In this document: piece by piece, positions 24,831 through 26,447 of the stretch
Numbering within the stretch: the first letter of the stretch is position 1
How the letters are laid out: each line of letters opens with the position of its first letter
Source: an uncultured bacterium
Lineage (GTDB): Bacteria; Muiribacteriota; Ozemobacteria; Ozemobacterales; Ozemobacteraceae
DNA length: 29,891 nucleotides
Direction: 5' to 3'
Assembly (NCBI GenBank): GCA_964596185.1
Contig: CAZQUE010000055.1
Location: 1-29,891 of the forward strand
Notes under the pieces: model-generated
Told to the model about the DNA's origin: nothing
Seen by the model: the letters and a program-made list of their open reading frames with translations, nothing else
Databases searched by the model: none
Made by a program: the position numbers and the translations under genes

Positions 24831-26447
24831 ATGAGCGCGATTCTTACGATAGTAATAGTTTTGGTTATTCTACTTCTGGTTTTTGTGATGTTTTCGCTCG
24901 ATGATCAGGAAGAAGAAACTGACTTTCTGCAGGAGCAGGACGCCGAAAATCCGGTCGAGGCGCCCGTTGAATCGGCAGAGATTGAACAGGAAAAGCCGGG
25001 CGAAGTCGAGGCCAGGGCTACGATTGAGCAGCAGCCCAGACCGGTGCGGGCCAGACCTGCTGAAGAAGTCTCTATGGTTGAGCCAGGTGGCGAAGAAGAT
25101 TTACGCCTGAGAATAATGCTCGATCAACGATTACCGTCTCCGACCGGCCATGAAGAGGTTAAAGCGGTCGTCGCGGCGATTCAGTTGCGCTTTCCTGAAG
25201 AAATTATTTCCTCGGGTGATGCCTTCGTTAAATTGATAAAAAGGGCCGAGAATCTTTTCGAAAAAGAGTTTTCCTTTCCTTTTGCCAGCTATCATTCGGC
25301 TCAGCTCGACCGGATAATGATTTTTGAAAAAGACGAAAGTCGTGATGACGAACTTTTTGAAGCGTTGGTCGTTGCCTTCGAAGCCGTTTCCCGATTCAAA
25401 AAAATGCTTGAATCTGATTCCGCCTTGCGCGATGCCAAAGCGCGGATTTCTGTCGGGTTGTCATCTGGCTCAATTGTAAAAGTCAAGCGAGGCATTGCCG
25501 CCGAGCCTTCCTGGATCGGAAAAGCGGTTTATATGGCCGAAACTCTGGCTGAAGCTGCCGGTGATTTTTCAATCTACGTTGACGAACAGATTCATAAGGC
25601 TGCTTTGCCTCTATTTGATTTCCGTGAGTGGAAGCCGATAAAAATGCGCTCGCCCTTGCCGGCTTTGCCGCTTTTCGAGCTGGTCGGCTGGAATAAGCCT
25701 GAGGAGATTGCTGCTTATGCTTCGCACAAAGATGCCTTCTCGAGGCGTGCGGTAGCGGTTGCTTACCGATATCTCGAGCTTGACGACATGATACAGCCTT
25801 TGCTCGAACTTTTGTCCGATGCCGATGAAAAGGTTGCGCTTGAAGCGCTTGAAACGGTCAAGGTTATCGGCAGCGAACAGGCTTTGGGTCTTTTGAAAAG
25901 AATTTTTCCTGAAGCACAGGAAGCTGCGTTTCGCAGTGCCATTATCGATGCCTTTGCCAGTATTGGCAAGAATGAAGTTGTTCCAGTTATCCTGGGTTCA
26001 ACCAAGGAAGCCAGCTGGAAAGTGCGTCTGAGCGCAGCCAGGGCTTTGCATCGGCTTTCGGGTAAAGATGCGCTGCGCCACCTTGAACACCTGCTTGAAG
26101 ATGCAGATGGTGCGGTTCGCGCCGGGGTCTGTGGAATTTTCTATCGTGAAACCGGTAAGAGCCTGTATTTAAAAGATCTTGGCGAGTTATTGCGTGATCT
26201 TTCGAATCGGGCGAGAAAAATCGCTGCTGATGAGCTTTTGCGCGTAGATTCCGACGATGCGGTCAAAATGCTTGTCGATGGTTTTGCCGATCAGGAGGCA
26301 GATCTGCAGCGATACATTTTGAATCGTCTTGAAGGAAGTAAGAGCAAAATACTCTATCAGAGTTTTTTGACACTATTTAAAATTTCTGGTGAGAAGATCC
26401 GTCCTCAGATTGTCGAGGCGGTGCGTCGAACCGGACTGTTGAGTTGA
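24831..26447 (+). CDS. Membrane-anchored protein: N-terminal TM, acidic linker, degenerate class-III nucleotidyl-cyclase-like (CHD-like) domain, C-terminal HEAT/PBS-lyase repeats
   Basis: TM helix ILTIVIVLVILLLVFVMF. ARISVGLSSGSIV...GKAVYMAETLAEAAGDFSIYVDEQI parallels cyclase RIGIHTG.VV...GD.VN.AARLE.....I.VSE. Canonical metal-binding Asp motifs are not evident. Repeats ...ALEALETVKVIGSEQALGLLKRI.../...WKVRLSAARALHRL.../...GAVRAGVCGIF... are HEAT-like. Confidence 0.55.
   Translation: MSAILTIVIVLVILLLVFVMFSLDDQEEETDFLQEQDAENPVEAPVESAEIEQEKPGEVEARATIEQQPRPVRARPAEEVSMVEPGGEEDLRLRIMLDQRLPSPTGHEEVKAVVAAIQLRFPEEIISSGDAFVKLIKRAENLFEKEFSFPFASYHSAQLDRIMIFEKDESRDDELFEALVVAFEAVSRFKKMLESDSALRDAKARISVGLSSGSIVKVKRGIAAEPSWIGKAVYMAETLAEAAGDFSIYVDEQIHKAALPLFDFREWKPIKMRSPLPALPLFELVGWNKPEEIAAYASHKDAFSRRAVAVAYRYLELDDMIQPLLELLSDADEKVALEALETVKVIGSEQALGLLKRIFPEAQEAAFRSAIIDAFASIGKNEVVPVILGSTKEASWKVRLSAARALHRLSGKDALRHLEHLLEDADGAVRAGVCGIFYRETGKSLYLKDLGELLRDLSNRARKIAADELLRVDSDDAVKMLVDGFADQEADLQRYILNRLEGSKSKILYQSFLTLFKISGEKIRPQIVEAVRRTGLLS

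What the first reader, a model, noticed from the sequence alone, without database searches (positions are those of the whole stretch)
24831..26447. Membrane protein fusing a degenerate nucleotidyl-cyclase-like domain to HEAT repeats, translationally coupled to a sigma-54 activator
The domain order TM, acidic linker, CHD-like domain (RISVGLSSGSIV...GKAVYMAETLAEAAGD retained, metal-binding Asp motifs apparently lost), HEAT/PBS repeats is unusual. Its stop is 3 nt before the start of the NtrC-like regulator, which has an intact receiver domain but no histidine kinase nearby. This protein may be a non-canonical sensory or scaffolding partner, possibly a pseudo-cyclase.
Basis: partly seen in the sequence, partly recalled or inferred. 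Interest (0 to 1): 0.5.

Follow-up and report, generated by a model that had tools for sequence, protein, structure and literature searches.

The report
Membrane pseudo-cyclase–HEAT partner of σ54 activator
This gene encodes a membrane-anchored protein found only in the uncultured phylum Riflebacteria, made of an adenylyl-cyclase-type domain that has lost every catalytic residue joined to a HEAT-repeat scaffold; it is always encoded immediately upstream of a sigma-54 transcription activator, so it is probably that activator's regulatory partner rather than an enzyme.

Summary
ORF 24831-26447 (538 aa) has four parts: an N-terminal hydrophobic helix, an acidic disordered linker, a class III cyclase-homology domain (CHD) and PBS-type HEAT repeats.

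- **Sequence:** Pfam's own cyclase model misses the domain, but a profile of it finds 106 genuine cyclase proteins at E≤1e-3 (best 8e-12).
- **Catalytic residues:** all are replaced across 104 homologues (Asp1→Q118, Asp2→L159, Asn→Y234, Arg→T238). Several replacements are themselves nearly invariant.
- **Distribution:** the family occurs only in Riflebacteria.
- **Linkage:** in 44 of 44 loci that hold both genes, an NtrC-type activator starts at or next to the gene's stop codon. The activator's receiver residues are invariant. No histidine kinase lies nearby.
- **New finding:** in 38 of 38 loci a sigma-54 promoter and tandem GTG-N9-CAC sites precede the next operon (EIIA/PtsN-like, RsbW-like, ndk). 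This is the activator's likely target.

My best reading is a non-catalytic partner that controls the activator, similar in logic to NifL-NifA. The partner role is inferred, because the whole 9-gene block is syntenic. I rate it a new variant of a known kind, of moderate interest.

The parts
24784..24813 (+). Candidate sigma-70-type promoter (TAGGCA-18-TATAAT) in the 44-nt era-TARGET spacer. Weak evidence.
   Evidence: Consensus scan, 10 of 12 matches. The match is not visibly conserved in other loci. The spacer has no sigma-54 motif.
24831..26447 (+). TARGET coding sequence, 538 aa: membrane anchor, acidic linker, pseudo-cyclase domain and HEAT repeats.
24834..24908 (+). N-terminal hydrophobic helix (residues 2-26), the only membrane-spanning candidate.
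   Evidence: Kyte-Doolittle mean 3.5 over residues 3-21. AF2 helix at residues 2-26. Conserved across the family.
24909..25082 (+). Acidic, proline-containing disordered linker (residues 27-84), variable in length and sequence among homologues.
   Evidence: pLDDT <50. 18 D/E against 5 K/R. Alignment columns 60-230 are gappy.
25083..25700 (+). Class III cyclase-homology domain without catalytic residues (residues 85-290). Q118 is at 25182-25184, R120 at 25188-25190, Y234 at 25530-25532 and T238 at 25542-25544.
25719..26444 (+). HEAT_2 / PBS-type HEAT-repeat solenoid (residues 297-538).
   Evidence: Pfam HEAT_2 3e-15. All-helical AF2 model at residues 290-534 with pLDDT about 90. Foldseek hits to alphaRep proteins at 21-24% identity.
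26450..27847 (+). NtrC/AtoC-type sigma-54 activator (REC + AAA+ Sigma54_activat + HTH_8). Starts 2 nt after the TARGET stop, or at TTG 26444 with a 4-nt overlap.
   Evidence: Pfam. NCBIfam. REC quintet and GAFTDA are invariant. Coupling seen in 44 of 44 loci.
27879..27893 (.). Upstream activator site 1, palindrome GTGTTATATTTACAC (GTG-N9-CAC).
27907..27921 (.). Upstream activator site 2, GTGTGAAATTTGCAC, 28 nt from site 1.
   Evidence: At least 2 sites in 33 of 38 loci. Background is 0.03 per 140 nt.
27966..27981 (+). Sigma-54 promoter TGGCATAAAAATTGCT (-24 GG / -12 GC), 45 nt upstream of the EIIA gene.
   Evidence: One mismatch to the consensus. TGGYAY-N6-TGC lies 36-53 nt upstream of the EIIA start in 38 of 38 loci.
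28026..28475 (+). Stand-alone PTS EIIA (fructose/PtsN type), first gene of the putative sigma-54-dependent operon.
   Evidence: Pfam PTS_EIIA_2 1.4e-39. NCBIfam. 79-99% identity across the phylum.
28518..28949 (+). 143-aa protein with weak similarity to the N-terminal half of RsbW-type anti-sigma kinases.
   Evidence: Pfam HATPase_c_2 E 0.03. NCBIfam RsbW E 7.6e-7, far below the cut-off.
28953..29420 (+). Nucleoside diphosphate kinase (ndk), last gene of the putative regulated operon.
   Evidence: Pfam NDK 3.8e-55. Syntenic in most loci.

Best explanation
TARGET is a phylum-specific, membrane-tethered pseudoenzyme. Its middle domain descends from a class III adenylyl/guanylyl cyclase, but the residues that bind metal, choose the substrate and stabilise the transition state have all been replaced, so it should not make cyclic nucleotides. 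Its C-terminal half is a HEAT-repeat solenoid, a typical protein-binding surface.

The gene sits where a sensor kinase gene normally sits, directly upstream of and translationally coupled to an NtrC-type sigma-54 activator. The two proteins are therefore probably made together in fixed proportion.

**Proposed mechanism (inferred).**
1. TARGET dimerises through its cyclase-like domain, as all class III domains do.
2. It holds or releases the activator at the membrane through the HEAT solenoid.
3. The remodelled former active site, lined by near-invariant Q118, R120, Q158 and Y234, acts as a ligand pocket or interface that sets this switch.
4. The freed activator, phosphorylated by an unidentified donor, binds the tandem GTG-N9-CAC sites.
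5. It then opens the conserved sigma-54 promoter of the adjacent EIIA(PtsN-like)/RsbW-like/ndk operon.

**Shown:** domain identities, loss of catalytic residues, phylum-wide conservation, the tight gene junction, and the conserved promoter and upstream sites.

**Inferred:** cytoplasmic orientation, dimerisation, physical contact with the activator, ligand binding, and that this particular activator drives this promoter.

For: **Homology by sequence.**
- 121 hits at E≤1e-3 in a library of 1.84 billion proteins.
- 106 of the 108 hits outside the family carry a canonical cyclase-homology domain that overlaps the match.
- 10 of 10 sampled hits are PF00211 proteins.
- hhalign gives E 9e-5.

**Catalytic sites in 104 homologues.**
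- Asp1 is replaced by Q in 101.
- Asp2 is replaced by L, F or M.
- Asn is replaced by Y or F in 103.
- Arg is replaced by T, S or A.
- The substrate-specifying Lys position is variable.
- Neighbouring residues R120 (101) and Q158 (99) are conserved.

**HEAT.**

**Distribution.** All 46 species-level loci, and the most divergent member P0109, lie in the same Riflebacteria gene block.

**Spacing between genes.**
- The activator start maps at or next to the TARGET stop in 44 of 44 loci. Where a start codon was identified it lies -11 to +14 nt from the stop, and one locus has a gap of about 39 nt.
- The era-TARGET spacer is 13-204 nt.
- The activator-EIIA spacer is 142-517 nt.

**Activator competence.** The REC phospho-acceptor quintet is invariant and GAFTDA is a known functional variant.

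**No kinase.** None in the 29.9 kb window or in the 6-kb flanks of L047.

**Promoter and upstream sites.** The sigma-54 promoter is present in 38 of 38 loci. Upstream sites are present in 38 of 38, with two or more in 33 of 38.
Against: - The whole 9-gene block, from the CNNM genes to ndk, is syntenic in every genome, so adjacency is not specific evidence for a TARGET-activator interaction.
- The era-TARGET spacer is also short, so TARGET may simply belong to the housekeeping era transcription unit.
- Topology is unresolved. The N-tail is 2-3 residues with no K/R, and the 20 residues after the helix average 9 D/E and 1 K/R. A periplasmic C-terminal portion cannot be excluded, and that would preclude direct contact with the activator.
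- In one metagenome-assembled genome (L029) the gene is interrupted by an IS110-like element while the activator is intact. The activator can therefore exist without an intact TARGET, at least in some cells of that population.
- No direct evidence exists for ligand binding or dimerisation.
Confidence: 0.45

Rival explanations
1. TARGET is a housekeeping or envelope-associated scaffold of the era operon, functionally unrelated to the activator. Under this reading the junction reflects compact operon packing in a slowly rearranging gene block, not a regulatory partnership.
For: The block ffh-rimM-trmD-rplS-lepB-rbgA-phoH-7TMR_HD-ybeY-CNNM-CNNM-DUF502-DUF3048-era-TARGET is co-directional and tightly packed. 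The part from CNNM to ndk is conserved in all loci. The era-TARGET spacer is only 13-47 nt in many loci and has no conserved promoter. TARGET evolves faster (38-90% identity) than the activator (60-99%).
Against: The TARGET-activator junction is the tightest in the neighbourhood in all 44 loci, mostly -11 to +14 nt with one gap of about 39 nt. It persists down to 38% protein identity. A signalling-type domain next to a kinase-less response regulator fits a partnership better than coincidence.
Confidence: 0.25
2. TARGET is an active nucleotidyl cyclase, or another nucleotidyl transferase, that uses non-canonical catalytic residues. Its product would signal to the activator or to the PTS-Ntr branch.
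For: The fold is complete from the N-terminal capping helix to the last hairpin. The former active-site positions are conserved rather than decayed (Q118, R120, Q158, Y234). Acidic residues E123/E124 lie near the end of strand 1.
Against: No acidic residue is invariant at or next to either metal position. Residue 159 is hydrophobic and D160 varies (D 64, N 29, S, G, T, Q). E123 and E124 are not invariant. The transition-state Asn and Arg are both absent in all 104 members. Two-metal catalysis has no known substitute in this fold (established knowledge of class III cyclases).
Confidence: 0.05
3. The large C-terminal portion is exported. The N-terminal helix would then be an uncleaved signal anchor, and TARGET would be a periplasmic or envelope HEAT scaffold that signals only indirectly, if at all, to the cytoplasmic activator.
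For: There is no positive charge on either side of the helix, and an invariant acidic cluster (DD-x-EE) follows it. Under a membrane potential this could favour translocation of the C-terminal side.
Against: Cyclase-homology and PBS-type HEAT domains are, as far as I know, cytoplasmic modules (from memory). There is no signal-peptidase motif. The gene is translationally coupled to a cytoplasmic DNA-binding protein.
Confidence: 0.1

Closest known systems
Class III adenylyl/guanylyl cyclase catalytic domains (Pfam PF00211; e.g. Rv1625c 4p2f, CyaB 3r5g, CyaC 1wc1, mammalian AC C1/C2)
   Different: All six canonical catalytic or substrate positions are replaced. The Pfam model does not detect the domain. 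Identity is 10-17%. The domain is fused to HEAT repeats. No solved structure covers both domains.
Class III adenylyl cyclase-like ATP-binding protein of Pseudomonas aeruginosa (PDB 6YII, deposited as 'Transcriptional regulator')
   Different: 6YII has two tandem cyclase-like domains in one soluble chain. In the aligned stretch it keeps GDPANHAAK, so the Asn is present and the Arg is replaced by Lys. TARGET has a single domain with Y and T at those positions, a membrane anchor and HEAT repeats, and it is a separate polypeptide from the regulator. ATP binding by TARGET is untested.
Degenerate site of heterodimeric cyclases (mammalian AC C2 domain; soluble guanylate cyclase subunits)
   Same: This is the precedent for a cyclase-homology domain that lacks the metal-binding aspartates yet is functional as a regulatory half. 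Rat AC2 C2 (1ab8) is the top Foldseek hit.
   Different: C2 keeps the Asn/Arg pair and the Lys/Asp pair and completes an active site with C1 (from memory). TARGET has neither set, and no catalytic partner domain is encoded nearby.
NifL-NifA (and, more loosely, PspA-PspF and FleN-FleQ): non-kinase protein partners that control sigma-54 activators by direct binding
   Same: The logic is the same. A signalling-domain protein that does not phosphorylate is encoded immediately upstream of, and translationally coupled to, a sigma-54 activator. NifL in Klebsiella is also partly controlled by membrane association (from memory).
   Different: There is no sequence or fold relationship. NifL is PAS plus a degenerate kinase, and NifA has a GAF domain rather than a receiver. 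The TARGET-associated activator has a fully intact receiver, so a phosphodonor is still expected.
PBS-lyase-type HEAT proteins (NblB, CpcE/F, alphaRep scaffold family)
   Same: Same repeat type (Pfam HEAT_2 and HEAT_PBS; NCBIfam NblB E 9e-10; alphaRep structures at 21-24% identity).
   Different: Scores are far below the family cut-offs (38 against 300 bits). There is no phycobilisome context. Only the repeat type is shared.

Membership tests
Class III nucleotidyl cyclase (cyclase-homology domain superfamily) | Cyclase-homology fold: beta-alpha-beta-beta-alpha-beta core, beta4-beta5 arm and C-terminal hairpin | tested here: met
Class III nucleotidyl cyclase (cyclase-homology domain superfamily) | Significant sequence-profile relationship to PF00211 proteins | tested here: met
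   The family profile finds 106 cyclase-domain proteins at E≤1e-3 (best 8e-12) among 1.84 billion proteins. 10 of 10 sampled are PF00211. hhalign E 9e-5, probability 59%.
Class III nucleotidyl cyclase (Pfam PF00211 as curated) | Score above the Pfam gathering threshold | tested here: not met
   No Guanylate_cyc hit even at E≤1. None of about 100 homologues carries a precomputed PF00211 annotation.
Catalytically competent class III cyclase | Two metal-binding aspartates (strand 1 D-x-x-G-F-T; strand 2/3 G-D) | tested here: not met
   Asp1 column is Q118 (Q 101, N 1). Asp2 column is L159 (L, F or M in 94 of 103; no D or E). The neighbour D160 is not conserved.
Catalytically competent class III cyclase | Transition-state Asn and Arg in the V-N-x-A-x-R helix | tested here: not met
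   In 66 of 66 profile alignments Asn maps to Y234 and Arg to T238. Across the family these are Y 95 / F 8 and T 88 / S 6 / A 5.
Catalytically competent class III cyclase | Substrate-specifying Lys/Asp (AC) or Glu/Cys (GC) pair | tested here: not met
   The Lys column (residue 155) is variable (Q, L, A, P, S, H and others). The Asp/Thr column (residue 227) is S 51 / T 37 / G 8.
Catalytically competent class III cyclase | Head-to-tail dimer and cNMP synthesis | not testable with these tools
   No multimer prediction or assay is available.
HEAT_2 / PBS-type HEAT repeat proteins | Tandem helix-turn-helix repeats that match the Pfam models above cut-off | tested here: met
   HEAT_2 56.7 bits (cut-off 27.7). 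HEAT 30.1 bits (cut-off 23.5). Helical solenoid at residues 290-534. alphaRep fold hits.
Bilin lyase / NblB equivalogs | NCBIfam equivalog score | tested here: not met
   NblB 38 bits against cut-off 300. CpcE 17 bits against cut-off 330.
Sensor histidine kinase (the usual upstream partner of NtrC-type regulators) | HisKA/DHp and HATPase_c domains | tested here: not met
   Neither domain is found in TARGET at E≤1, nor in any other window ORF scanned.
Class III AC-like ATP-binding proteins (6YII type) | Cyclase fold that binds ATP without turnover | tested here: inconclusive
Known sigma-54 anti-activators (NifL, PspA, FleN, HrpV) | Homology to PAS/kinase-like, PspA_IM30 or ParA/MinD-type domains | tested here: not met
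   The Pfam scan of TARGET lists only HEAT-type families. The resemblance is in gene logic only.

The most novel reading that the evidence does not exclude
The remodelled cyclase pocket (Q118, R120, Q158, Y234) is a nucleotide sensor that takes the place of a sensor kinase's input domain. By binding a nucleoside triphosphate or a cyclic nucleotide it would decide whether the HEAT solenoid releases the NtrC-type activator. The activator then switches on an operon that contains nucleoside diphosphate kinase and a PtsN-like EIIA. This would form a membrane-tethered feedback loop that couples nucleotide pools to sigma-54 transcription in an uncultured phylum.
Probability: 0.12. Interest if true: 0.75.

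Novelty: new variant of a known kind. Interest (0 to 1): 0.45.

Why it matters
Non-catalytic relatives of class III cyclases are known, for example the degenerate half-sites of heterodimeric cyclases and the Pseudomonas ATP-binding cyclase-like protein. Very few have an assigned partner or output.

Here a whole phylum keeps such a domain with a re-fixed, conserved 'active site'. The domain is fused to a protein-binding solenoid and a membrane anchor. Its gene is locked to a kinase-less NtrC-type activator, and that activator's likely promoter and binding sites can be read directly from the DNA.

That gives a complete, testable circuit of input protein, activator, upstream sites, sigma-54 promoter and regulated operon. 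It could be rebuilt in E. coli even though no Riflebacteria isolate was available to draw on here. If the partnership holds, it adds a new class of sigma-54 activator controller and a new use for the cyclase fold.

Tried and rejected
- **Pfam and NCBIfam scans of TARGET.** Only HEAT-type hits came back. Bilin-lyase and NblB membership is rejected on score.
- **Profile search of PDB sequences with the domain alignment.** Only non-significant hits (E 0.45-1.6), so it is not usable alone.
- **Residue mapping at strand 1.** hhalign in local mode covers only the C-terminal two-thirds. Global mode placed the metal Asp at E123 with very low confidence. I preferred three independent HMM alignments to real cyclases that place it at Q118. 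Either way, no invariant acidic residue is present.
- **A sigma-54 promoter upstream of TARGET.** None found. The whole-window count of consensus matches is at chance, 14 against 16.8 expected.
- **Degenerate relatives as the closest outgroup.** The best remote hits (tandem CHD-AAA_16-TPR proteins) have canonical motifs, so they are not pseudo-cyclase intermediates.
- **Family members outside Riflebacteria.** The most divergent member (P0109) lies in the same gene block. Metagenome-assembled genomes labelled Erysipelotrichia, Methylomirabilis or Avigastranaerophilus carry the same block and are probably mislabelled.
- **GAFTDA as a defect in the activator.** Rejected, because it is a documented functional variant (PMC4641369).
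- **Unavailable or empty searches.** Literature searches for HEAT plus sigma-54 activator found nothing, and the 6YII paper is not held.
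Full report
**1. The observation**

The ORF at 24831-26447 (+) is real and encodes 538 aa. Its stop codon TGA is at 26445-26447. The next gene can start at ATG 26450, leaving a 2-nt gap, or at an in-frame TTG at 26444, giving a 4-nt overlap.

Pfam finds HEAT_2 (3e-15, above cut-off) and HEAT in the C-terminal half, and no cyclase model even at E≤1.

The downstream protein is a complete NtrC/AtoC-type activator with Response_reg, Sigma54_activat, AAA_lid_14 and HTH_8 domains.

One strongly hydrophobic segment occupies residues 3-21, with a Kyte-Doolittle mean of 3.5. 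It is followed by a linker of 58 residues with 18 D/E. AlphaFold2 (AF2) models this linker as disordered.

**2. The family**

A search of 5.8 billion proteins gave about 100 full-length homologues at 38-90% identity. Those that carry a source name are labelled Candidatus Riflebacteria, Rifleibacteriota or Ozemobacteraceae, or just '[bacterium]', and are annotated only as HEAT-repeat or hypothetical proteins.

In an alignment of 34 diverse members the membrane helix, the middle domain and the HEAT half are conserved. The linker is variable in length and sequence.

**3. The middle domain is a class III cyclase-homology domain (CHD)**

An AF2 model of residues 82-300 (pLDDT 84) has the strand and helix order of a cyclase catalytic domain.

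- Foldseek against the PDB returns only class III adenylyl, guanylyl or other nucleotidyl cyclases in the top 50, with E about 1e-7 and TM up to 0.69.
- In the full-length model the domain matches Rv1900c with TM 0.82.

Sequence evidence agrees once the search direction is reversed. A profile of the Riflebacteria domain, run against 1.84 billion representative proteins, finds 121 proteins at E≤1e-3.

- Of the 108 hits outside the family, 106 carry a canonical cyclase domain that overlaps the match. I judged this with a model built from real AC8 and AC9 C1/C2 sequences.
- 10 of 10 sampled hits are PF00211 proteins.
- The best remote E-value is 8e-12.
- Profile-profile comparison gives E 9e-5, probability 59%.

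**4. It is not a working cyclase**

I used the profile alignments to true cyclases to map the catalytic positions.

- The Asn and Arg of the V-N-x-A-x-R helix map to residues 234 and 238 in 66 of 66 alignments.
- The first metal Asp (D-x-x-G-F-T) maps to residue 118 in the three alignments that reach strand 1.
- The second metal Asp (G-D) maps to residue 159, give or take one position.
- The substrate-specifying Lys maps to residue 155 and its Asp/Thr partner to residue 227.

Across 104 family members these positions read as follows:

| Canonical residue | Position in TARGET | Residues in 104 homologues |
|---|---|---|
| Metal Asp 1 | 118 | Q 101, N 1 |
| Metal Asp 2 | 159 | L, F or M |
| Substrate Lys | 155 | variable |
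| Substrate Asp/Thr | 227 | S or T |
| Transition-state Asn | 234 | Y 95, F 8 |
| Transition-state Arg | 238 | T 88, S 6, A 5 |

The structural glycines of the fold are retained (G209, G213, G221, G230). R120 and Q158, next to the former metal sites, are nearly invariant.

The site has therefore been rebuilt and then fixed rather than left to decay. This argues for a new, selected function of the pocket or interface. What that function is remains unknown.

**5. The HEAT half**

Residues 290-534 form a helical solenoid with pLDDT about 90. The closest solved structures are alphaRep proteins at 21-24% identity. No solved chain covers both domains. NblB and CpcE models match only far below their cut-offs.

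**6. Gene neighbourhood**

A scan of one genome per species found 46 loci. I mapped the window's neighbours onto them.

The block CNNM-CNNM-DUF502-DUF3048-era-TARGET-activator-EIIA-orf143-ndk is conserved throughout. It is also present in the most divergent family member.

| Junction | Spacer length | Source |
|---|---|---|
| TARGET stop to activator start | at or next to the stop in 44 of 44 loci; -11 to +14 nt where a start codon was identified; one gap of about 39 nt | |
| era to TARGET | 13-204 nt | |
| activator to EIIA | 142-517 nt | |

The TARGET-activator pair is the tightest junction in the region. Because the whole block is syntenic within one phylum, adjacency alone does not prove a functional link.

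The window upstream is a housekeeping run: ffh, rimM, trmD, rplS, lepB, a YlqF-type GTPase, phoH, a 7TM-HD protein and ybeY. I scanned one ORF of ≥120 aa per locus against Pfam, leaving out overlapping antisense and alternate-frame ORFs. None is a histidine kinase.

**7. The activator and its likely target**

The receiver's five phospho-acceptor residues are invariant in 43 of 43 orthologues, so phosphorylation is probably still used. The sigma-54 contact loop reads GAFTDA in all orthologues. This variant occurs in functional activators of Desulfovibrio vulgaris (PMC4641369).

In the spacer after the activator gene I found a one-mismatch sigma-54 promoter, TGGCATAAAAATTGCT, at 27966-27981.

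- The element TGGYAY-N6-TGC lies 36-53 nt upstream of the EIIA start in 38 of 38 loci.
- This site accounts for 38 of the 54 occurrences in 1.05 Mb of locus sequence, counting both strands.

Upstream of the promoter lie palindromes GTG-N9-CAC. In the window they are at 27879-27893 and 27907-27921.

- At least one is present in 38 of 38 loci, and two or more in 33 of 38.
- The most common spacing is 28 nt.
- The background rate is 0.03 per 140 nt.

This is the standard layout of an enhancer-dependent promoter. The simplest reading is that the adjacent activator drives the EIIA(PtsN-like)/RsbW-like/ndk operon. That assignment is an inference from position.

**8. How it most likely works**

*Shown:* a membrane-anchored protein made of a catalytically dead CHD and a HEAT solenoid, conserved across a phylum. 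It sits in the gene position usually held by a sensor kinase and is coupled to a kinase-less NtrC-type activator with a readable output promoter.

*Inferred:* the large portion is cytoplasmic, it dimerises through the cyclase-like domain, the HEAT surface binds the activator, and the rebuilt pocket sets that binding.

The nearest analogy in logic is NifL-NifA, a non-phosphorylating signalling protein translationally coupled upstream of a sigma-54 activator (from memory). There is no homology between the two systems.

**9. Weak points**

- Topology cannot be read from charge. The N-tail is 2-3 residues without K/R, and the 20 residues after the helix average 9 D/E and 1 K/R.
- One genome has the gene split by an IS110-like insertion.
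- No phosphodonor was found.
- The rival that TARGET simply belongs to the era housekeeping unit keeps about a quarter of the probability.

**10. Verdict**

The partner role is plausible but unproven.

This is a new variant of a known kind: a non-catalytic class III cyclase domain in a new architecture and context. It is of moderate interest and has a cleanly testable circuit.

Noticed in passing
window 27850-28025 (promoter 27966-27981; palindromes 27879-27893 and 27907-27921): A conserved sigma-54 promoter and tandem GTG-N9-CAC upstream sites lie in front of the EIIA/RsbW-like/ndk operon. They are present in 38 of 38 related loci.
   Followed up: yes
window 1830-4367 (+): An 845-aa ORF matches the major vault protein shoulder domain (Pfam MVP_shoulder 4.6e-29) and a vault repeat (Vault_3). 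This is a bacterial vault-protein-like gene.
   Followed up: no
L029 7203-8509 (Ca. Rifleibacterium amylolyticum CH46): The TARGET orthologue is interrupted at about residue 390 by a 1.3-kb insertion that carries a 345-aa transposase-like ORF. I judged it IS110-like by eye. The activator gene downstream is intact.
   Followed up: partly
window 28518-28949 (+): This 143-aa protein resembles only the N-terminal half of RsbW-type anti-sigma serine kinases (NCBIfam E 7.6e-7, far below the cut-off). It is conserved between the EIIA gene and ndk in most loci.
   Followed up: partly
window 26444-27847 (+), residues 219-224: The activator's sigma-54 contact loop reads GAFTDA instead of GAFTGA in 43 of 43 orthologues. 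This is a documented functional variant (PMC4641369).
   Followed up: yes
window 24834-24960 (TARGET residues 2-45): The membrane helix has no flanking positive charge, and an invariant acidic cluster (DD-x-EE) follows it. The positive-inside rule therefore gives no orientation.
   Followed up: partly
L005, L014, L023, L024: Metagenome-assembled genomes labelled Erysipelotrichia, Methylomirabilis and Avigastranaerophilus carry the same Riflebacteria gene block at 43-69% identity. This is probably mis-binning or mislabelling.
   Followed up: no
window 4551-7383 (-): An ORF6N-domain protein (4551-5138) lies next to two tandem galactose-1-phosphate uridylyltransferase-like paralogues (5363-6364 and 6382-7383).
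   Followed up: no
window 23800-23894: The longest era ORF overlaps the end of the DUF3048 gene by 95 nt. The true era start is probably the internal Met just before the G1 motif (MQKFAAIGLFGRANAGKST).
   Followed up: no
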